DNA from: Candidatus Sumerlaeales bacterium
Lineage (GTDB): Bacteria; Sumerlaeota; Sumerlaeia; Sumerlaeales; Sumerlaeaceae
Length of the DNA: 31,640 nt
Direction of reading: 5' to 3'
Assembly: GCA_038243585.1 (NCBI GenBank)
Contig: JBBSQY010000040.1
Span: 1 to 31,640, forward strand
Below the pieces are notes generated by a model. The model saw only the letters and a list, made by a program, of their open reading frames with translations, ran no database searches and had not been told where the DNA came from. The translations under genes and the position numbers were made by a program. This document shows, in pieces, positions 10,272-20,187 of this stretch; positions within the stretch are counted from its first letter, which is position 1; every line of letters starts with the position of its first letter.

Positions 10272-10467
10272 AAGTAAAAACAGAAAATTTTTATTTTTAC
10301 CATTTGAAAACAACGATGGAGGGGGCATTGCGTGGGGATAAAAATATATGCAGTTGAACCCCTTTGTAAAGCGCAACCGCCCTTGACACTACCGACACGG
10401 GCACTGCAGTTCTTATCAATCTTCATACTTTGTTCAGGGTTTGGTTGAAAAGGTGGTTACCATTTAG

Positions 10468-13400
10468 TTGTTGGATAACGAATACATCATAGGCATCGAT
10501 CTCGGGACCACAAATTCTGTTGTGGCAATTCTTGAGGGAGAAAGCCCGAAGGTTATCAGCAACAGCGAGGGCAGCACCCGGACCCCGTCCGTGGTCTCGT
10601 TTCTTGCGGGCGGAGAAATTACGGTTGGAGACGTAGCGCGGCGGCAGGGCGCGGTTAATCCTTCACGAACCGTATACAGCATAAAGCGTCTGATGGGTCG
10701 CACTCCCCAGGATATCGAAGCCTCGGGCATCTACGCCCCCTATACCTTAAAATCAACGGCAGACTCTCAGTTGGTTGTCAGTATTGATGATGCGTTGTAT
10801 ACCCCGGCACAAATTTCTTCTTTTATATTAATGAAGCTGAAGCAGGCGGCCGAAGACCATCTGGGCCAAACCGTGACCAAGGCCATTGTAACGGTGCCGG
10901 CTTATTTTGATGATCTTCAGCGCCAGGCCACCCGCGAAGCCGGACGGCTGGCCGGTCTGGAGATACTGCGCCTGGTAAACGAACCGACCGCCGCTGCGAT
11001 GGCCTATGGCCTTGGCAAGGAAACCAAGGAACGTATCGCCATTTACGACTTTGGCGGCGGCACTTTCGACATGACGATTCTCGAAATTTCGGACGGAACT
11101 TTTGAAGTATTGACGAGCCAGGGAGACACCAGCCTTGGCGGCGACGATATTGATTCCTTACTCGTTCAATTCCTGTTGGATCGTTTCAAGGAGAACACCG
11201 GCGTTAACTTTGAGCCCGACGACATGGCCCGGAGGCGACTAACGGAGGCGGCGGAAAAGGCGAAGTGTGAACTTTCGTTGTCGCCCCAGGCGCTGGTTCA
11301 TTTGCCGTTTCTTGCCCAGGAGAACGGTTCGCCCCTGCATCTGGATACTACGGTGCGCCGGGAGGACTTTGAAGACCTTATCGAGCACCTTGTGGAACGC
11401 AGTCTGGAATGCTGTCGCGCCGCGCTAGCCGATTGCGATTTAAAGGCTACCGAAATTGACAAAGTCATTCTGGTGGGCGGCACCACTCGCATTCCTCTTC
11501 TGCAGGACATGGTGGAGGAACTCTTTGGCGTTGTGCCTTTCAAGGGGATTAATCCCGACGAGATTGTTGCCCTGGGGGCGGCCACCCAGGCGGGGGTTTT
11601 GGCCGGGAAACTCAAAGAAGTCATCCTGCTGGATGTAACCCCGCATACGCTGGGAGTTGAAGTTTCAGAAAACCGGATGACAAAGGTTATCGAAAAAAAC
11701 ACCACCATCCCTGCAAAAGTGGGCCGGCTGTTTACCACCACGGAAGACGGCCAGGAAATGGTGACAATCCACGTATTGCAGGGCGAATCTGAAAAGGCTT
11801 CAGAGAATCGATCCCTTGGCAAGTTTACCCTGACATCCATTGCACCGGCGAAAGCAGGCACTGCGCGGGTGCAGGTTGCGTTTCAGATTAACGCGGACGG
11901 CATGGTAGAGGTTGTGGCAGAGGATATGGCCACGCGGAAACAACAGAGCCTGACCTTGTCTCTCGGTGGCGAGGGTGACACGGTTCAGGCAGCCCGTGAG
12001 CGCGCGACCGGTGCGGTAAGCGCAAGGCGCAAGCGCCGGCGCACACGGACGGGCGAGAGGGTGTCTTCTCCTGAGCAGGGCACCCCAATAGGCGTGCAGG
12101 CGGCTTCGCAGCCGCAGCGCGATCAAACCGGTGCGAGAACGTTACGGAACAGTGATAGTTCGGTAGCCTCGGTTGTCGCGCCTATTGCCAACGTGCCGCA
12201 GTCAATCGCCGCTTCAATGTCACCCGATGTGGCTCCGGCCTCCAATCAGATGCCCGGCCCGGCGACTCCTCCAGCATCACAGGATGGAACTCAACCGGCA
12301 TTGGACAGCTCTGCTGGCGCAAACTCTTCAGAGCCAGGCAATGCCACGGGCTTGTCGCCGCAGGCTATAAAAGCTTTATCGTTAATTGGAGATAAGGCAG
12401 CTTCGGCCACCTCCTATGAAGTTTATCTAAAATCCTATTCGGAACTGCAGGAGTATGTGCGCCGGAATCCTGCTGATTATACGGTGGCTGAAGGCGCGAC
12501 CCGAATCCTGATGACGCTGGGTGAATGCGACGGCGCGAGGGCTTTGCTAAAGATCATGACGGAAGCTCCTGCCGTGGATTCTGAACGCATTTCCCAGCTG
12601 AAAAAAGAATTCCACGCTCGTTTTCCCAACGACGTCAACTCGACGCAGCCCATTACCTCGCCCGCCGGAACAAAGGAAGGCGTCGACACCGCCATTCGCA
12701 GTATGGAAAAGCGGGTTACAAATGATTCCGGCAGCGTCGACGAGATTGATAATCTGATTCAGCTATACCGCCGCAGGCTTGCCCATGCAGATGATCCTGC
12801 GACTCAGTACAAACTGGTGCAACTTCTCGTGCGCCTCGAGCGGGTAGACGAGGCCATTAACATTCTTCAGCGCCTTGTTCAGCATGAATCCTATCGCGGA
12901 CACTCGCTCAAGATCCTTGGTTTGTGCTTCTGGCAAAAGGGACTGCATTACCTGGCATGGCAAAAATTTCAGCAGCTTCCCCCGTCGGATGAAATCAAGG
13001 ATATCCTGTACAGGCTGGCTGCGGACATGGAAGATACCGACCAGCTACTAAACGCGAAGGTCGTATTTCAGCATCTGGTCAATGCAGATCCGGAATTCCG
13101 GGACGGTGCAGATCGACTGAAAAAGATTGAGGGCATCATCCGGATGGAAGCAGGCAACCGGGAAGCCAGTCTGACCCCGTCGATATTCCTGACTTTGAAA
13201 GATTCCCGGTTTGTCGTTCTTGAAGAGGTTAACCGGGGCAGCATGGGCATCGTTTACCGCGCAAGGGATAAGGTGCTTGAAGAAATAGTTGCCCTGAAAA
13301 TCCTGAACGATTATATGACGACTGACCCATCTGCAGTGGAACGATTTAAACGGGAAGCCCGCGCGGCCAAACGCCTTTCTCACCCCCACATCGTGCGCAT

Positions 13401-13989
13401 CCATGATATGTTTGAGTATGGAAATAAGAAGATACTTTCGATGGAGTTTATCGAAGGCGTAGATCTGAAAACCGTGCTCGCGGAACGTAAAACCCTTCCT
13501 CTCTATGAAATCGCCGGCATCGCGCGGCCGGTGTGCGACGCGCTGCAGTATGCCCATCAGCAGTCTATCGTCCATCGCGACATTAAGCCCGCCAACATCA
13601 TGATAACCAATTCGAACCAGGTCAAGGTTACGGATTTCGGCATTGCCAAGGTACTGCTTGCGGGGCGCGATTCCACCCGGTCCGGATCGCAGATTATCGG
13701 GACTCCTCTATATATGTCGCCAGAGCAGATTATGGGCGACGATGTGGACGCCCGGACGGATATCTACAGTTTCGGCGCAACCATGTACGAACTGGCCACA
13801 GGCAAGCCGCCCTTCCTGGACGGCAACATTGAATATCATCACCTTCACACGTTGCCCCCGCCCATGACGGAAACAGTGCCGCTGGCGCTCCAGCAGATCA
13901 TTTTCAAGTGCCTGGAAAAGAAACCGGAAGACCGATATCCAGCGATCAGCCAGGTGGCGGACGCGCTGGTGAAGCTAAGCCAGGGGTAG
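10468..13989 (+). CDS. Hsp70/DnaK-like ATPase and substrate-binding domain fused to a TPR-like helical region and a Hanks-type Ser/Thr kinase
   Basis: Hsp70 part (to ~11960): GIDLGTTNS, TVPAYF, NEPTAAA, DFGGGTFD, VGGTTRIP, VILLDVTP linker, NTTIP and QGE. Then a P/A/S/Q-rich linker, TPR-like helices (~12700-13140), and a kinase from ~13210 with NRGSMG, VALK, HRDIKPAN, DFG, GTPLYMSPE and DIYSFG. Single open frame. Confidence 0.93.
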   Translation: MLDNEYIIGIDLGTTNSVVAILEGESPKVISNSEGSTRTPSVVSFLAGGEITVGDVARRQGAVNPSRTVYSIKRLMGRTPQDIEASGIYAPYTLKSTADSQLVVSIDDALYTPAQISSFILMKLKQAAEDHLGQTVTKAIVTVPAYFDDLQRQATREAGRLAGLEILRLVNEPTAAAMAYGLGKETKERIAIYDFGGGTFDMTILEISDGTFEVLTSQGDTSLGGDDIDSLLVQFLLDRFKENTGVNFEPDDMARRRLTEAAEKAKCELSLSPQALVHLPFLAQENGSPLHLDTTVRREDFEDLIEHLVERSLECCRAALADCDLKATEIDKVILVGGTTRIPLLQDMVEELFGVVPFKGINPDEIVALGAATQAGVLAGKLKEVILLDVTPHTLGVEVSENRMTKVIEKNTTIPAKVGRLFTTTEDGQEMVTIHVLQGESEKASENRSLGKFTLTSIAPAKAGTARVQVAFQINADGMVEVVAEDMATRKQQSLTLSLGGEGDTVQAARERATGAVSARRKRRRTRTGERVSSPEQGTPIGVQAASQPQRDQTGARTLRNSDSSVASVVAPIANVPQSIAASMSPDVAPASNQMPGPATPPASQDGTQPALDSSAGANSSEPGNATGLSPQAIKALSLIGDKAASATSYEVYLKSYSELQEYVRRNPADYTVAEGATRILMTLGECDGARALLKIMTEAPAVDSERISQLKKEFHARFPNDVNSTQPITSPAGTKEGVDTAIRSMEKRVTNDSGSVDEIDNLIQLYRRRLAHADDPATQYKLVQLLVRLERVDEAINILQRLVQHESYRGHSLKILGLCFWQKGLHYLAWQKFQQLPPSDEIKDILYRLAADMEDTDQLLNAKVVFQHLVNADPEFRDGADRLKKIEGIIRMEAGNREASLTPSIFLTLKDSRFVVLEEVNRGSMGIVYRARDKVLEEIVALKILNDYMTTDPSAVERFKREARAAKRLSHPHIVRIHDMFEYGNKKILSMEFIEGVDLKTVLAERKTLPLYEIAGIARPVCDALQYAHQQSIVHRDIKPANIMITNSNQVKVTDFGIAKVLLAGRDSTRSGSQIIGTPLYMSPEQIMGDDVDARTDIYSFGATMYELATGKPPFLDGNIEYHHLHTLPPPMTETVPLALQQIIFKCLEKKPEDRYPAISQVADALVKLSQG

Positions 13990-14150
13990 GCAGTGGGCGA
14001 CAGCGCAAAGCAAAGCAAAGACCTGGTGGGAAACAGGATTTTTCGCAACCGAGAAGATGCCACGTAAGTGGCGAGTTTGTCTGAACTGATATAGCTTTTG
14101 AGTTGTAGGTTTTTTGAAATGAACTTTACACCAACGGCAAAGGACAGGCC

Positions 14151-14651
14151 TTGTCTTCTAACCAACCCTCTCAACTTCGCGGCCTCCTGGAAGAATCCGG
14201 CATGGGCTGGTTGTTTAATAGCGACGATGCCGATGAGCGTGCCTGCGCACTTGCATCGGATTTCCAGTTGGCTGAGTTAACGTACAATAGCCTGTACAGC
14301 AACCAAAAGGACTTTTACCCCCTGGTCTCAAGCGAGACGGGTCAGCTTAAATACAAGGCGTTTCTTCAAAGCTTTGCTTTGCCCCTATCGACAGAAGCCC
14401 GAGTAATTATTTTTCGCATACTGGACGGCGCGGTGATCCGCAATATGGATTTTAGTTATACCAAAGGCTCGACATCCAGACTTCAGATACGGTTCAGCGA
14501 TGATGAGTTTTATATATTGGCCGACGGTGCCTGGGACGTATTGCTAATTAAACAGTTAAGTTTTTTTGAATCTCAGAACCTGCTCGAAGTCGGAAGCATA
14601 AGCCCCTGGGAAAATTTGGCTACTCCGAATTTCAATGAGGATGTAAAGTGA
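14151..14651 (+). CDS. Hypothetical protein, first gene of a coupled three-gene module
   Basis: 166-aa ORF in AT-richer DNA; its stop overlaps the next start (GTGA at 14648-14651). Confidence 0.6.
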   Translation: MSSNQPSQLRGLLEESGMGWLFNSDDADERACALASDFQLAELTYNSLYSNQKDFYPLVSSETGQLKYKAFLQSFALPLSTEARVIIFRILDGAVIRNMDFSYTKGSTSRLQIRFSDDEFYILADGAWDVLLIKQLSFFESQNLLEVGSISPWENLATPNFNEDVK

Positions 14652-15109
14652 CAACCGCGACCAACGAAGCGTCAGATTATGCTGCTATGGCAGGCTCGCC
14701 TTTTAGAACGTCACGGCGCACGGTAGATACAGTCCGATTTCGATCGATGCAAACCGTGCGTGAGCTACAAGCATTAACGCAGGAATGCGGTAGCCCCAAC
14801 TGGGATGGGTATGGAGCCTCACCTGTAATCCCAGAGACTCTTGATTTGGCCCGCCGTCTGGCTTTTGCTCTACCTTTTGACATTCCATTGCCCTCCGTTG
14901 GCGCGGAGGCCGACGGACACCTGACGTTTGAATGGTACGAGGGGCCACGAAACGTCCTGTCTTTAAGTGTTAGTCCTGAAGGATTGCTCTGTTACGCCGC
15001 TCACATCGGGCAAAGCAAACGGTCAGGCACAGAGCCTTTTAATGGTCGGCTTCCAGAAGATGTGGTGCAGATTGTCCGCCGTCTCACCGGGAAGCGAGTG
15101 TTGACATAG
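14648..15109 (+). CDS. Conserved hypothetical protein with NWDGYGA..P motif (candidate antitoxin/partner)
   Basis: GAGG RBS; NWDGYGASP...P.VGAEADGHLTFEW...LSLSV..EG...YAA pattern that I recall from small proteins in sporadically distributed operons. Confidence 0.75.
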   Translation: MTTATNEASDYAAMAGSPFRTSRRTVDTVRFRSMQTVRELQALTQECGSPNWDGYGASPVIPETLDLARRLAFALPFDIPLPSVGAEADGHLTFEWYEGPRNVLSLSVSPEGLLCYAAHIGQSKRSGTEPFNGRLPEDVVQIVRRLTGKRVLT

Positions 15110-15504
15110 AATCCGCGACTGTCGAGGATGACGAGCAACTGGCGCGATATATATTTAAGAAGGAACACCTCCGCGCCGACGGCACCATAAAACCCGATCC
15201 GTTCATTCCATACAAATATGTAGAACTCTCAGTAACCCGGCATGAGAGGCTTAACGAACACGAAATCTGGTTAGCCGGACAATTGGTTGCAAGTCAGGTA
15301 AAGCGACCGTTAGTCGGACGTGCCGACGTTGCAGCAGCGGCTTTTGCACGCGTAGGATTAAAAACTGTTGCAGCGCCCCTGCCTGAAAACTCGAATCATG
15401 CAAACGTTATTGGCTGGCCATCGGATAAGCAGGCTCAAAAGGAAATTGCCTTGGATATTGCTGAAAGTTCAATATTTAAACGTGCTCCGCTGGCCATAGC
15501 ATAA
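15106..15504 (+). CDS. ~132-aa protein with R/S/H motif arrangement (ART/RES-like fold candidate); longer than the ORF-track call 15283..15504
   Basis: The frame is open upstream of 15283 and reads IESATVEDDEQLARYIFKKEHLRADGTIKPDPFIPYKYVELSVTRHERLNEHEIWLAGQLVASQVKRPLVGRADV...PLPENSNHANVIGWPSDKQAQKEIALDIA. The only start-like codon at the gene junction is ATA 15106, overlapping the upstream TAG. Confidence 0.7.
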   Translation: MESATVEDDEQLARYIFKKEHLRADGTIKPDPFIPYKYVELSVTRHERLNEHEIWLAGQLVASQVKRPLVGRADVAAAAFARVGLKTVAAPLPENSNHANVIGWPSDKQAQKEIALDIAESSIFKRAPLAIA

Positions 15505-17823: not shown

Positions 17824-18915
17824 CTATTTTTTCACCACCCGCTCCGAATCTGAAAGACCAGCGCTGCCATAGCTCATCATAGGTTTTCCCCGTTTTAGGC
17901 GCTCCAGAATTGCTTTCATCTCCGGCCGGTCCACCACGGGGTTGCCGGAGAGTTTCTCCTTCTCATACATGGCCAAGGTCTTACGAACAACCTCAGCAGT
18001 TGTCTCTTTTGCCGGAGTCCATTTTGCCCATACTTCGTAAGGACCATCGGCAATTATATTACCTGCGCCGGAAAGCACATTGTAAATCTGGAGGGAATTT
18101 TCCTCGGAGACTCTAAGGTCGATTCGCCCACCCTTCAGCGAGCCCATCTTTTCGTATCCCACAAGCTGCACAAGCGAAAAATCTACCCGGAGAAGTCCGG
18201 GAATATCCACATAAGCACGCTCTGTGTCACCCATTCCTAAGATAGTACCAACGTAAGAATCATAGTTTAATATGACAACGGAATTTTCAAATGTCATTTG
18301 TTCGACCTTTTTAAACGCATCCGCGATCGGTACGGAAACTTCCGGCGCCTTAATTTCCATGCTCGGCACCAGGCTTAATTTATAAACTCGGCCATCTGGA
18401 GCATGGCCAAGTTCTACCGTCTTCGCGTCCAGACTCGAAAGGTCCACTTGAAAAGAGCGGTCCTGGATGACCGCATCCGCGGGCCAGGGAGTCAGCTTAA
18501 CCGCCGTTCCGAATTTTCCGTCTATAAATTGCGGCCGTATCTGCACCCCAAAACTTCTTTCTTCATCAGTGTAAGCTGGCCCGACCATTCCGCCAAGCCC
18601 TGTAATCATGAAACCTGGCCCGGTTGTATCCCGGTAGCTTGCAATGCCCACGGTGGGAATTATGGAAAACAACCTTACATCCAACCGGTGCATCCTTGAT
18701 TCAGTGGAGGCCGCATCGTCAAACGAAGCCGGCGTAACTGCCGCTTGGCTGTCTGAAGTTTGGTAAGTGCTCCGCTCGGCTGTTTCGACGACATTTGCCG
18801 TACCAGTGGTCTGGCCAGTGCTCACAGCTGCGGCGCTCGCCACGATACAACCCAACGCCAAGTTACGAAGCTGGCAAAAATCGAGTTTCCTATTTGAAAG
18901 AAGATCGCTGTTCAT
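17824..18915 (-). CDS. Exported hypothetical protein, third gene of the ECF operon
   Basis: 363-aa ORF with a signal-peptide-like N-terminus; ATGA overlap with the upstream gene. Confidence 0.7.
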   Translation of the reverse strand: MNSDLLSNRKLDFCQLRNLALGCIVASAAAVSTGQTTGTANVVETAERSTYQTSDSQAAVTPASFDDAASTESRMHRLDVRLFSIIPTVGIASYRDTTGPGFMITGLGGMVGPAYTDEERSFGVQIRPQFIDGKFGTAVKLTPWPADAVIQDRSFQVDLSSLDAKTVELGHAPDGRVYKLSLVPSMEIKAPEVSVPIADAFKKVEQMTFENSVVILNYDSYVGTILGMGDTERAYVDIPGLLRVDFSLVQLVGYEKMGSLKGGRIDLRVSEENSLQIYNVLSGAGNIIADGPYEVWAKWTPAKETTAEVVRKTLAMYEKEKLSGNPVVDRPEMKAILERLKRGKPMMSYGSAGLSDSERVVKK

Positions 18916-19397
18916 TGCTGCTCACTTTCACATTTATAATATTGAATCGAGCGAATTGTTCCCAATCCCGCTATGACTGTATGTTCCTGGTAAAATACCG
19001 GCTCACACGCGACAAAACCAGAATTCGGTTTTGAAATCTCCGGCGCGACAGGGGAAGGCAGATTCGCTGCGGAAGGTCGGTTTTCCTGGGTAGCGGCCAT
19101 CCCGATATGGCCTCTGTTGCCGCTGTTCCACATTTGCAAAAAAGACAAAATCACCAGCGCGAACATGACCATCGCCGCCACCGGCAACGGCACTGTAACG
19201 CGTTTTTGCCACCACGACCGGTCCCGTATACGCCTTCCCGGTTTCATCCTGCTTAGTTCCACGGCTATGCGCGCCGCGTTGCCCTCCTGCGTCGACCGCG
19301 GCGGCCCCAACTCCCGCAGAGGCCTCAGTACATCCGCAATATGGTCGGCATCCGCCTGCTGCGGATCATCGGGTAAGTTTCGGCCATCCAGATTCAT
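18912..19397 (-). CDS. Putative single-pass membrane anti-sigma factor
   Basis: Directly downstream of the ECF sigma (ATGA overlap); WW.KRVTVPLPVAAMVMFALVIL transmembrane segment after a short cytoplasmic N-terminus. Confidence 0.7.
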   Translation of the reverse strand: MNLDGRNLPDDPQQADADHIADVLRPLRELGPPRSTQEGNAARIAVELSRMKPGRRIRDRSWWQKRVTVPLPVAAMVMFALVILSFLQMWNSGNRGHIGMAATQENRPSAANLPSPVAPEISKPNSGFVACEPVFYQEHTVIAGLGTIRSIQYYKCESEQQ

Positions 19398-19978
19398 TTA
19401 TCTCTGCTCCCATGACTGGTTTCGTTCGCCTGCATCTGCTGGCGAAGCCGTGCGCAGCTTCGGTGCAAGATGCTTTTCACAGTGTTAAGAGGGATCTCCA
19501 GGGCCACGGAAATCTCCTCCAGTTTGAGTTCCTCCACAAATCGCAGCAGCAGCACTTGCCGTTCGGGGTCGTTGCATTGATTGATCAGCGTCAATGCCTG
19601 CTCCACCTGTTCGCGGTGGACAACGGATTCAAATGTCGATGGTCCCGGCGTCGGTACTTTGGCTAGTTCATCCGCGTCAAGTTGTGCTTCCGATCTACTG
19701 CGCCACCCGCGGCGCTGAACGTTTCGAGCCACTCCGAACACAAACGAACGCAGCGATTCCGGTTCACCGCGCATTTTAGGAAACAAGTGCACGAGCTGAG
19801 CGAACGTCTCGCCGCACTCATCTTCTGCTCGATCATGCCGCCCGTGGGCATAGAAAAAGAATCTGTAAAGTGGAGCCTCAAATCGGGCCAATAAAATATC
19901 AAATGCCTGCGATTCGGATTGGCGTAAGCCCTTTAGCAACTCATCGTTTTCAAGGTGGTCATCAAAAGTAGGATTCAT
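19394..19978 (-). CDS. ECF (sigma-70 group 4) RNA polymerase sigma factor
   Basis: Region 2 (AFDILLARF..PLYRF, RAED, SFVFGVARN) and region 4 (RQVLLLRFVEELKLEEISVALEIPLNTVKSILHR). Likely start ATG 19978. Confidence 0.92.
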   Translation of the reverse strand: MNPTFDDHLENDELLKGLRQSESQAFDILLARFEAPLYRFFFYAHGRHDRAEDECGETFAQLVHLFPKMRGEPESLRSFVFGVARNVQRRGWRSRSEAQLDADELAKVPTPGPSTFESVVHREQVEQALTLINQCNDPERQVLLLRFVEELKLEEISVALEIPLNTVKSILHRSCARLRQQMQANETSHGSRDK

Positions 19979-20020
19979 AGGAAGGCTGACGTTTACCGCA
20001 GATTTCTGTCTCACTGGTAA

Positions 20021-20048
20021 AGTGCCTGCCGAAGGGCAAAAGGTTGCA
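20021..20048 (-). promoter_or_regulatory. Putative autoregulatory ECF promoter
   Basis: TGCAAC-CTTTT...(N16)-GGCACT: AAC-type -35 with a T-tract, ~40 nt upstream of the sigma ATG. Confidence 0.55.
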
Positions 20049-20187
20049 ATTCTATCAGAATTGCTCAATTTTGAAAGCTATTAATTAAAGATTCGCTTTC
20101 GCTACATCACAATGGATGCACCGCATCTGCCGGCGTCTGCTAATTTAAACTGAATTCGCCGTTATGGGCAGGAGCAACAGGCGTATC

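What the first reader, a model, noticed from the sequence alone, without database searches (positions are those of the whole stretch)
10468..13989. Lid-less Hsp70 fused to TPRs and a Ser/Thr kinase: a candidate chaperone-gated signalling kinase
Seen: one reading frame holds a full Hsp70 ATPase domain, the allosteric linker (VILLD) and the beta substrate-binding domain. The alpha-helical lid is replaced by a basic stretch (RRKRRRTR) and a disordered linker, followed by TPR-like helices and an intact kinase (VALK, HRD, DFG, SPE). There is no TM segment, no grpE, dnaJ or hrcA neighbour and no CIRCE. By hand alignment, the E. coli DnaK substrate-arch residues M404/A429 are S/T. Known: housekeeping DnaK needs the lid and cochaperones, and its GGGT threonine (T199) can be phosphorylated. 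Inference: the Hsp70 module senses unfolded or foreign (e.g. phage) peptides and controls the kinase, as a cytoplasmic stress or conflict switch.
Basis: partly seen in the sequence, partly recalled or inferred. Interest (0 to 1): 0.85.

Follow-up and report, generated by a model that had tools for sequence, protein, structure and literature searches.

The report
Lid-less Hsp70 fused to TPR-kinase
One intact gene, conserved across most of the uncultured bacterial phylum Sumerlaeota, joins a working-looking Hsp70 chaperone that lacks its lid to a TPR domain and a protein kinase, so it may report protein-folding trouble directly by phosphorylation; nobody has tested this.

Summary
Window 10468-13989 (+) is one 1173-aa frame with five parts:
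- Hsp70 ATPase domain
- VILLD linker
- beta substrate-binding domain
- about 127 disordered residues starting with a basic run
- a TPR superhelix of 13 predicted helices, then an intact Hanks-type Ser/Thr kinase

It is not an assembly chimera. Both halves lie in one frame in 51 of 75 Sumerlaeota genomes, and 14 more hold ortholog-grade fragments. It was not found in 10, including all 7 genomes of one family.

The genome has a separate canonical DnaK and two accessory Hsp70 systems. The fused Hsp70 groups nearest the accessory paralog that sits beside a J-domain/TPR cochaperone gene.

The last TPR hairpins plus kinase form a cassette. The same cassette follows sensor domains (FG-GAP, CHASE2) in receptor-type kinases. 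So Hsp70 sits in the input slot.

Other Hsp70-kinase fusions, in both gene orders, are also mostly lid-less.

Best reading, inferred only: a cytoplasmic chaperone-gated kinase, a one-chain analogue of BiP-IRE1/PERK. The phage-conflict idea has no support from gene context.

This scan found the same family before on other DNA (e1-4539523, e1-3401452). In print I found only a 2005 survey listing kinase+HSP70 in Pirellula.

The parts
10450..10456 (+). Shine-Dalgarno-like AAGGTGG, 11 nt before the TTG start
   Evidence: Read directly from the sequence.
10468..13989 (+). Whole gene: Hsp70-TPR-kinase fusion (called HTK here), 1173 aa plus stop
   Evidence: Open frame. Full-length relatives at 44-84% identity. 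Both parts in one frame in 51 of 75 phylum genomes.
10468..11607 (+). Hsp70 nucleotide-binding (ATPase) domain, residues 1-380
   Evidence: Pfam HSP70. Alignment to DnaK structures. Catalytic residues K73, E172, D194, T199 in 90 of 90. pLDDT about 90-98.
11620..11634 (+). Interdomain allosteric linker VILLD, residues 385-389
   Evidence: Aligns to VLLLD of E. coli DnaK. The final residue is D in 83 and E in 7 of 90.
11635..11961 (+). Beta substrate-binding domain, residues 390-498. The pocket is kept; the arch is changed (S400 for M404, T425 for A429) and His393 is family-specific.
   Evidence: Strands 386-497 in the model.
11962..12342 (+). Predicted disordered linker, residues 499-625, in place of the lid. 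It holds a weak helix-A remnant (505-520).
   Evidence: pLDDT below 50 over 499-625. The Pfam HSP70 profile ends at 503 of 599. Linker length is 94-281 aa in 90 members and it is rich in A, P, S and R.
12025..12048 (+). Basic run RRKRRRTR, residues 520-527
   Evidence: A run of this kind is present in 60 of 90 members, against a mean of 4.1 in shuffled linkers.
12358..13158 (+). TPR superhelix, residues 631-897, 13 helices in two blocks (631-718 and 736-897)
   Evidence: AlphaFold2 models. Foldseek best matches are consensus-TPR and OGT TPR domains, E 3.5e-7 and up. Pfam TPR_19 at its cut-off.
12886..13137 (+). Conserved pre-kinase cassette, residues 807-890 (KILGLCFWQKGLHYLAWQKF...EIKDILYRLA.DME). 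It is shared with receptor-type kinases.
   Evidence: C820, K824, W831, Y848 and L850 are invariant in 29 of 29 sequences and conserved in at least 90% of 90. BLASTP E 1e-15 to a CHASE2 kinase and E 1e-16 to the FG-GAP/TM/TPR kinase paralog.
13201..13977 (+). Hanks-type Ser/Thr kinase domain, residues 912-1170. All catalytic motifs are present; the activation loop is 1062-1072 with T1070.
   Evidence: Pfam Pkinase E 2e-53. Invariant motifs. NCBIfam PknB model 294 bits, below its cut-off of 450. The loop has low pLDDT.

Best explanation
What is shown: the gene encodes a soluble cytoplasmic protein, called HTK here. An ATPase-competent, allosterically intact but lid-less Hsp70 is tethered through a disordered, basic and Ser/Thr/Pro-rich linker to a TPR superhelix and an active Hanks-type Ser/Thr kinase. 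HTK is an old paralog found across most of Sumerlaeota, separate from the housekeeping DnaK.

What is inferred: the Hsp70 part is the sensor of the kinase. Its open, lid-less peptide site captures exposed hydrophobic segments under ATP control, probably helped by a J-protein. Occupancy of that site then sets the kinase's oligomeric state.

Two sub-models fit equally well:
(a) Titration. Without clients the substrate site holds HTK's own disordered linker, or that of a neighbouring HTK, and keeps the kinase monomeric. Unfolded proteins compete this away, as proposed for BiP on IRE1.
(b) Induced proximity. Several HTK molecules on one unfolded or aggregated client bring kinase domains together.

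In either case activation-loop trans-autophosphorylation (candidate site T1070) would switch on phosphorylation of downstream targets. Those targets are unknown.
For: 1. The Hsp70 machinery is under selection. K70, E171, D194 and T199 equivalents and pocket residues F426 and V436 are kept in 90 of 90. The J-domain face is kept in 89-90 of 90. The linker Asp is D or E in 90 of 90.

2. The kinase catalytic motifs are invariant in 90 of 90.

3. The lid is absent. The hydrophobic arch residue is lost: M in 2 of 90, while 7 of 8 canonical-type DnaKs of the phylum have L and one has M.

4. The slot argument.
- The last about 85 TPR residues plus kinase recur behind FG-GAP plus one TM helix in a 1611-aa Sumerlaeota paralog.
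- They also recur behind CHASE2 in kinases of a Terriglobia MAG and three Deltaproteobacteria-type MAGs.
- So Hsp70 occupies the place of a sensor domain.

5. Recurrence. Among the best 150 of 1.84 billion representatives there are three groups:
- 11 HTK-type proteins;
- 10 other Hsp70-first kinase fusions;
- 13 kinase-first fusions.
Of 6 non-HTK fusions scanned, 5 end the HSP70 profile at 500-515 of 599. On the Hsp70 tree starred branches force at least 5 (kinase-first) and 3 (Hsp70-first) label changes, so the fusions did not arise once.

6. It is a stand-alone gene. No neighbour is conserved across 19 orthologous loci plus the window.

7. A candidate cochaperone exists.
- HTK's Hsp70 groups next to paralog p2 (FastTree support 97).
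- A constrained HTK+p2 tree is not rejected: AU p 0.59, log-likelihood 6.4 higher than the free search.
- p2 sits beside a J-domain (HPD)/TPR gene in 5 of 5 genomes checked.
Against: - Nothing computed here shows that client binding changes kinase activity.
- The AlphaFold2 full-length model has pTM 0.52 and no confident segment inside the linker. So no docking motif is predicted for this member.
- The linker sequence is poorly conserved. Short motifs are shared only within subclades, which shared descent alone could explain.
- J-protein and HTK co-distribution is imperfect. With this query the J-TPR gene was not found in 6 genomes that have HTK or an HTK fragment (G059, G031, G032, G035, G043, G053). 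The shared absences come from few lineages (f16, G064), so they are few independent events.
- No RNA data, substrates or phosphatase partner were identified.
Confidence: 0.5

Rival explanations
1. Client-marking kinase. The Hsp70 part is a substrate-recruiting arm. It holds unfolded or nascent proteins so that the tethered kinase phosphorylates them, for example as a tag for degradation or sequestration. This resembles what I recall of the arginine kinase McsB, which marks proteins for ClpCP in Bacillus.
For: The same anatomy fits. An open, lid-less binding site sits on a tether 94-281 residues long (median 149), next to an active kinase. The stand-alone gene needs no dedicated partner. Fusions occur in both gene orders, which suits a proximity device.
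Against: The kinase cassette is the one used by receptor-type kinases with sensor domains. That points to signalling rather than bulk tagging. No protease or adaptor gene is linked. The McsB parallel is from memory and McsB is not a Hanks kinase.
Confidence: 0.2
2. Self-regulated specialised chaperone. The main job is chaperoning, as a holdase for a narrow client set. The kinase tunes the Hsp70 cycle by phosphorylating the ATPase domain, the linker or the cochaperone.
For: The linker is rich in Ser and Thr: 27 of the 120 residues 511-630. T199 is invariant. The sister paralog p2 is a full Hsp70 with its own J-protein, so the lineage began as a chaperone.
Against: Loss of the lid recurs in kinase fusions. 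By my recall of DnaK lid-truncation studies, lid loss weakens client holding. The TPR-kinase cassette is shared with signalling receptors.
Confidence: 0.12
3. Anti-phage or conflict sensor. The Hsp70 part detects phage proteins and the kinase triggers a defence response.
For: The kinase domain hits PADLOC PD-T4-6 models (E 2e-81), mad6 and PglW, and NCBIfam MADS6 and PglW below their cut-offs.
Against: Those hits cover only residues 909-1173. The same residues score 294 bits on the PknB model, so they reflect the generic kinase fold. The gene is present across most of the phylum. It lies among housekeeping and polysaccharide genes (uvrB, pyrG, flippase). There are no defence-family neighbours and no conserved island.
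Confidence: 0.05
4. Assembly chimera or mis-joined reading frame.
For: None found. The window comes from a metagenome-type assembly of 99 contigs.
Against: Both parts share one frame in 51 of 75 genomes. Logan's own contig of run X1 spans 10300-14200 with 0 differences, although that run may be the source sample. A second contig of about 80% identity in the same run is collinear across the gene, except that the linker and first TPR block (about 12017-12752) did not align at the 80% threshold. Pieces at about 83-94% identity come from another study.
Confidence: 0.01

Closest known systems
Bacterial DnaK (Hsp70), e.g. E. coli DnaK (PDB 2KHO, 4B9Q), and the genome's own canonical DnaK
   Same: The ATPase domain, VLLLD-type linker and beta substrate-binding domain align end to end. 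E is 1e-154 to 2KHO, and identity to the own DnaK is 53%. Catalytic, J-face and pocket residues are kept.
   Different: - No alpha-helical lid.
- Arch residues are changed.
- A family-specific His replaces L397 in 84 of 90.
- It carries 670 extra residues with a TPR domain and a kinase.
- It fails 3 of 4 NCBIfam DnaK equivalog cut-offs.
BiP (Hsp70) control of the stress kinases IRE1 and PERK, with J-protein ERdj4 (PMC5733394, PMC6996924, PMC4337721; search listing and abstract starts only)
   Same: An Hsp70 is coupled to a dimerisation-activated Ser/Thr kinase. Disordered regions are the proposed chaperone-binding sites, and a J-protein loads the chaperone.
   Different: There the chaperone and kinase are separate proteins on opposite sides of a membrane and the Hsp70 has its lid. 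Here they are one cytoplasmic chain. The kinases are not orthologous. The functional parallel is inference only.
'Kinase + HSP70' architecture noted in Pirellula sp. (gi 32474490) by Krupa and Srinivasan 2005 (PMC1262709; passages read)
   Same: A bacterial Hanks-type kinase and an Hsp70 in one polypeptide. It was recorded only as a domain combination.
   Different: That protein has the kinase first and Hsp70 last, and no TPR is reported. In my Hsp70 tree the kinase-first fusions are scattered and lie apart from the HTK clade.
Receptor-type TPR kinases: the Sumerlaeota FG-GAP/TM/TPR/kinase paralog (L014) and CHASE2 kinases of a Terriglobia MAG and Deltaproteobacteria-type MAGs (L137, L110, L125, L120)
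   Same: They share the pre-kinase TPR hairpins plus kinase. The pre-kinase segment alone is 37-38% identical, E 1e-15 and 1e-16.
   Different: Their N-terminal input is an extracytoplasmic sensor with a membrane helix. HTK has Hsp70 there and no membrane segment.
PknG of Mycobacterium tuberculosis and other TPR-bearing bacterial kinase families (bioRxiv 10.1101/2025.01.12.632604; passages read)
   Same: A soluble Hanks-type kinase with a TPR domain thought to mediate protein interaction or dimerisation.
   Different: In those families the TPR is C-terminal to the kinase. That atlas holds neither 'DnaK' nor 'chaperone' in its main text and no 'Hsp70'; only its main text was searched.

Membership tests
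Hsp70 superfamily (Pfam PF00012) | Actin-like ATPase domain with catalytic D8, K70, E171, D194, T199 (E. coli numbering) | tested here: met
   Alignment to 2KHO. K, E, D194 and T199 in 90 of 90; D8 in 87 of 90 with 3 gaps.
Hsp70 superfamily (Pfam PF00012) | Conserved hydrophobic interdomain linker and beta-sandwich substrate-binding domain with a hydrophobic pocket | tested here: met
   The linker is VILLD. F426 and V436 equivalents in 90 of 90; I401 and I438 equivalents are I, V or L in 90 of 90.
Canonical DnaK (NCBIfam equivalogs) | Alpha-helical lid (SBD-alpha) over the binding site | tested here: not met
   The Pfam profile is matched only to 503 of 599. AlphaFold2 gives one low-confidence helix at 505-520 and then disorder.
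Canonical DnaK (NCBIfam equivalogs) | Score above the curated equivalog cut-off | tested here: inconclusive
   PRK00290 scores 684.7 against 648 (passes). TIGR02350 scores 661 against 822, PRK13411 594 against 1002, and PRK13410 587 against 1019 (all fail).
Canonical DnaK (NCBIfam equivalogs) | It is the housekeeping copy of the genome | tested here: not met
   A 634-aa full-length DnaK (903 bits on PF00012) lies on another contig. HTK's Hsp70 lies outside the canonical clade.
Hanks-type (eukaryote-like) Ser/Thr kinases (PF00069) | Gly-rich loop, beta3 Lys, alphaC Glu, HRD, DFG and APE-type motifs, all intact | tested here: met
   G924-S-M-G927, K944, E963, H1036-R-D, N1043, D1056, G1058 and P1085-E1086 are invariant in 90 of 90; F1057 is conserved in at least 90%. 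Pfam E 2e-53.
PknB/Stk1 PASTA kinases (NF033483) | Membrane helix and extracellular PASTA repeats; score above the cut-off | tested here: not met
   294 bits against 450, and only the kinase part matches. No TM segment.
TPR repeat proteins | Stacked helix-turn-helix repeats forming a superhelix | tested here: met
   14 helices in the domain model, pLDDT 88. The Foldseek top 10 are all TPR proteins, E 3.5e-7 to 4.5e-5, though TM is only 0.3-0.4. Pfam TPR_19 scores 25.4 against 25. Relatives score higher.
Chaperone-gated stress kinases (BiP-IRE1/PERK type), by working principle | Kinase activity set by Hsp70 occupancy or unfolded-protein load | not testable with these tools
   Only anatomy and comparative context support it.
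Anti-phage kinase systems (PD-T4-6, MADS Mad6, BREX PglW) | Match over the system protein beyond the kinase fold, and a defence-island or system context | tested here: not met
   PADLOC matches cover residues 909-1173 only. Seven neighbouring ORFs gave no PADLOC hit. NCBIfam MADS6 scores 150 against 460 and PglW 65 against 990. The context is housekeeping.

The most novel reading that the evidence does not exclude
HTK is a built-in cytoplasmic unfolded-protein sensor. It would be the first case where substrate capture by an Hsp70 is passed on within the same polypeptide as Ser/Thr phosphorylation. Evolution has reached this solution repeatedly: Hsp70-first and kinase-first fusions, some with GrpE or HEAT/LRV spacers. 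Each time the lid was dropped, which turns a foldase into a fast-exchange detector. The Sumerlaeota version would work with the p2-linked J-domain/TPR cochaperone as a three-part stress circuit.
Probability: 0.35. Interest if true: 0.85.

Novelty: new variant of a known kind. Interest (0 to 1): 0.65.

Why it matters
Hsp70s are known to regulate signalling proteins in trans: sigma-32 in E. coli, and IRE1, PERK and HRI in eukaryotes. How chaperone occupancy becomes a signal is still debated.

A natural single-chain Hsp70-kinase would give a simple, purifiable system for that question. It is soluble and has intact catalytic sites in both enzymes. Mutations in the ATPase, the peptide pocket, the linker and the kinase can all be read out as autophosphorylation.

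Lid loss recurs in independent kinase fusions, which suggests a design rule for turning a chaperone into a sensor.

Databases label these proteins 'molecular chaperone DnaK'. That label hides the kinase and would mislead metabolic and stress reconstructions of this phylum.

Tried and rejected
- Complex prediction, Hsp70 (1-505) against TPR-kinase core (735-1173): no verdict, score 0.00 in two runs, controls not run. It says nothing either way.
- Looking for a docking motif in the linker through raised pLDDT in the full-length model: none in 499-625.
- The search for related loci in genome contigs with the TPR-kinase alignment. It chose generic kinase patterns, so 71 of the 79 loci were kinase-domain-only matches. 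It gave only one HTK fragment (L066). It did turn up the CHASE2 kinases.
- The listing of cluster members for 10 other fusions gave no organism names, so I cannot say which phyla hold them.
- RNA evidence: no RNA holder listed.
- CIRCE: none in the window, and one 3-mismatch site elsewhere in the genome. Uninformative.
- Sigma-70 and terminator scans: 5 and 9 sites against 2.6 and 5.2 expected, with no + strand promoter match before the gene. Uninformative.
- Similarity of HTK's TPR to the TPR proteins next to p2 and p3: best E 0.004, so no case for common origin.
- A full-length query over the phylum undercounts (28 of 75). Long divergent linkers split the matches and only 9 candidates per genome were scored. 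I therefore combined.
- Downstream small ORFs as conserved partners: no similarity to the ORF downstream of the G066 ortholog.
- Literature searches, with reads, found no study of this protein. The bacterial Hsp70 review PMC8215388 has 0 occurrences of 'kinase' or 'fused'. The Sumerlaeota paper PMC8092238 has 0 of 'DnaK' or 'Hsp70'. Supplements were not read.


Full report
THE OBSERVATION

Window 10468-13989 (+) is a single open frame of 1173 codons. It starts at TTG, 11 nt after an AAGGTGG.

Pfam finds three things:
- HSP70 over residues 7-504. Only profile positions 1-503 of 599 are covered, so the lid part of the profile is unmatched.
- A borderline TPR_19 at 773-805.
- Pkinase at 917-1159.

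NCBIfam's DnaK models match positions 3-497 only. The protein passes one of four DnaK equivalog cut-offs.

I aligned the protein to solved E. coli DnaK and counted residues over 90 family members:
- The catalytic residues, the J-domain-binding face, the VLLLD-type linker and the hydrophobic pocket are all kept.
- The A429T change is family-wide (88 of 90).
- The M404 position is variable but almost never hydrophobic (K 37, E 21, M 2 of 90). Of the phylum's 8 canonical-type DnaKs examined, 7 have L there and one has M.
- A His in place of L397 (84 of 90) is a further family signature.

The kinase has every catalytic motif, invariant in 90 of 90.

There is no membrane segment. The window has no grpE, dnaJ or hrcA and no CIRCE.

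AlphaFold2 with a 90-row alignment gives mean pLDDT 83.8 and pTM 0.52. The Hsp70 part, a helical repeat at 631-897 and the kinase are confident. Residues 499-625 are below 50, with only a weak helix at 505-520 where lid helix A would begin.

The helical domain folded alone reaches pLDDT 88. In the PDB it matches consensus-TPR, OGT, APC, PEX5 and P58IPK TPR domains, so 'TPR-like' is correct.

IS IT REAL?

The search for homologous proteins returned full-length relatives at 44-84% identity with the same Pfam set. The 120 best are listed. Where sources name them, the names are 'molecular chaperone DnaK' or 'Hsp70 family protein' of Candidatus Sumerlaeota.

I tallied the 75 genomes held for the phylum (own genome included):
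- 51 genomes: Hsp70 and TPR-kinase lie in one open frame.
  - 45 have a frame of at least 1150 aa with an ortholog-grade TPR-kinase match.
  - In 6 more (G059, G010, G022, G028, G063, G074) collinear matches put both parts in one frame.
- 14 genomes: ortholog-grade fragments on short contigs.
- 10 genomes: not found.
  - These are all 7 of family f16, including the single-contig 6.0-Mb genome G069, whose only Hsp70-like frames are 661, 601 and 360 aa.
  - The others are G014, G064 and G013 (G013 has a kinase fragment only).

Logan's own contig of run X1 spans the whole gene with no difference, although that run may be the source sample. A second contig of about 80% identity is collinear across the gene, except that the linker and first TPR block did not align at the 80% threshold. 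Pieces at about 83-94% identity come from another study.

A chimera is excluded for practical purposes.

THE GENOME'S OTHER Hsp70s

The own genome has three more Hsp70s:
- a 634-aa canonical DnaK with a lid;
- paralog p2 (619 aa, with lid), next to a 250-aa J-domain (HPD)/TPR gene;
- paralog p3 (584 aa), next to grpE and a TPR gene.

HTK's Hsp70 is 53%, 46% and 42% identical to these three.

In a FastTree of 84 Hsp70 domains the HTK sequences form one clade (support 99) whose neighbour is the p2 clade (97).

In an IQ-TREE quick run of 48 rows:
- HTK is again one clade (97).
- HTK and p2 both lie outside the group holding the canonical DnaKs (93).
- A tree that forces HTK and p2 together is not rejected (AU p 0.59) and scores 6.4 log-likelihood units better than the free search.

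The root is unknown, so 'sister' means nearest neighbour on an unrooted tree.

The J-TPR gene is found in 59 of 75 genomes and in 0 of 7 of f16. It lies beside p2 in 5 of 5 genomes checked. It shares HTK's absences in f16 and G064, and in G014 it carries a stop codon. It was not found in 6 genomes that have HTK or a fragment. Related genomes are not independent, so this is a weak pointer to a shared cochaperone.

SURROUNDINGS

In the window the gene sits between:
- divergent polysaccharide genes (a flippase-type protein and a DUF4380-like protein);
- three small unknown ORFs followed by uvrB.

An ECF sigma gene and pyrG lie further on.

Across 19 orthologous loci plus the window no neighbour is conserved phylum-wide. 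There are only lineage-level neighbours:
- a response regulator and a DUF4388 protein in 4 genomes;
- a secreted dockerin-like protein in 5.

So HTK is a stand-alone gene. PADLOC finds nothing in 7 neighbouring ORFs. On HTK it hits only the kinase domain.

THE KINASE HALF ELSEWHERE

The TPR-kinase query also finds paralogs of about 1600-1750 aa in most Sumerlaeota, f16 included. The one in G066 reads: signal-like N-terminus, FG-GAP repeats, one membrane helix, many TPRs, kinase.

The last 81-90 residues before the kinase (HTK 800-890 and 807-887) are 38% identical to that paralog (E 1e-16). They are 37% identical to the same position in a CHASE2 receptor kinase of a Terriglobia MAG (E 1e-15). 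Three further CHASE2 kinases from Deltaproteobacteria-type MAGs match likewise.

So 'terminal TPR hairpins plus kinase' is a cassette that normally follows a sensor domain. In HTK, Hsp70 stands in that place.

OTHER Hsp70-KINASE FUSIONS

In the exhaustive search of 1.84 billion representatives, I sorted the best 150 by BLAST against HTK's parts:

| Group | Count |
|---|---|
| HTK-type (several more are fragments) | 11 |
| Hsp70-first kinase fusions without the HTK cassette | 10 |
| Kinase-first fusions | 13 |

I scanned 6 of the non-HTK fusions on Pfam. Five end the HSP70 profile at 500-515 of 599 and one ends at 572. One carries GrpE between the two enzymes and another carries LRV/HEAT repeats.

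By length, at least nine of the 13 kinase-first proteins stop within about 30 residues of the beta domain.

On the Hsp70 tree these fusions are scattered. Starred branches force at least 5 and 3 changes of label. Lid loss together with a kinase therefore looks recurrent. I could not obtain their taxonomy.

HOW IT MOST LIKELY WORKS

What is shown: both enzymes have intact catalytic sets under purifying selection. The lid and the hydrophobic arch are gone. The tether is long, disordered, basic at its start and rich in Ser, Thr and Pro. The kinase cassette is a signalling cassette.

What is inferred: the Hsp70 is the input. It could act by titration, where the substrate site holds HTK's own linker until unfolded proteins compete. 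Or it could act by induced proximity, where several HTKs sit on one client. Either would end in activation-loop trans-autophosphorylation; T1070 is nearly invariant.

The nearest working parallel is BiP with IRE1 and PERK, including a J-protein loader and disordered binding regions (PMC5733394, PMC6996924, PMC4337721; I saw only the listing and abstract starts). I put this at 0.5.

Rivals:
- client-marking kinase, 0.2
- kinase-tuned chaperone, 0.12
- phage or conflict sensor, 0.05
- artefact, 0.01

WHAT IS KNOWN

The only mention in print that I found is a 2005 survey. It lists 'Kinase + HSP70' in Pirellula sp. with the kinase first (PMC1262709; passages read).

Four other sources hold nothing on such a fusion in the text I could search:
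- a 2021 review of bacterial Hsp70 machines;
- the 2021 Sumerlaeota genome paper;
- a 2025 atlas of bacterial Ser/Thr kinases;
- the 2020 conflict-systems paper.

Supplements were not read.

Earlier agents of this scan reported the same family from two other Sumerlaeota genomes (e1-4539523, e1-3401452) with the same reading. They also reported an archaeal Hsp70-GrpE-kinase (e1-3147007), which resembles my P0165.

VERDICT

This is a real, conserved, undescribed variant built from known parts. The mechanism is plausible but untested.

Noticed in passing
window 14151-15504 (+): Three co-directional small ORFs lie between HTK and uvrB: 166 aa, 153 aa (overlapping the first by 4 nt), and a 73-aa or longer frame without an obvious start. 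The stretch has about 49% G+C. The three have no PADLOC hit; the first two, the only ones scanned on Pfam, have no Pfam hit either. The two longer ORFs have no similarity to the ORF downstream of the G066 ortholog. It may be a small inserted module.
   Followed up: partly
L014:1927-6762 (G066) and about 1600-1750-aa frames in most phylum genomes: A receptor-like paralog: signal-like start, FG-GAP repeats, one TM helix, a long TPR array, then the same TPR-cap plus kinase cassette as HTK. It is also present in family f16, which lacks HTK. It was not found in the assembled part of the window's own genome.
   Followed up: partly
L002 (G000 contig C6) and L004 (G000 contig C39): Two accessory Hsp70 systems. 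One is p2 with a J-domain(HPD)/TPR gene. The other is p3 with grpE and a TPR gene. The canonical dnaK (L001) has neither grpE nor dnaJ beside it.
   Followed up: partly
G014, G064, G031 (other genomes): G014 has no HTK, and its J-TPR gene carries a TAA. G064 lacks both genes. The G031 HTK has 2 TGA inside the Hsp70 part. These could be co-loss or decay, or sequencing errors.
   Followed up: no
P0165, P0176, P0130 and 20 other representatives: Independent Hsp70-kinase fusions outside the HTK family. Some are Hsp70-first, one with a GrpE domain between the enzymes. Some are kinase-first, one with LRV/HEAT repeats. Their organisms are unknown to me.
   Followed up: partly
window 17824-20068 (-): An ECF-type sigma-70 gene (19394-20068) is followed on the same strand by two ORFs without family hits (161 aa and 363 aa). 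These could be its anti-sigma partners.
   Followed up: no
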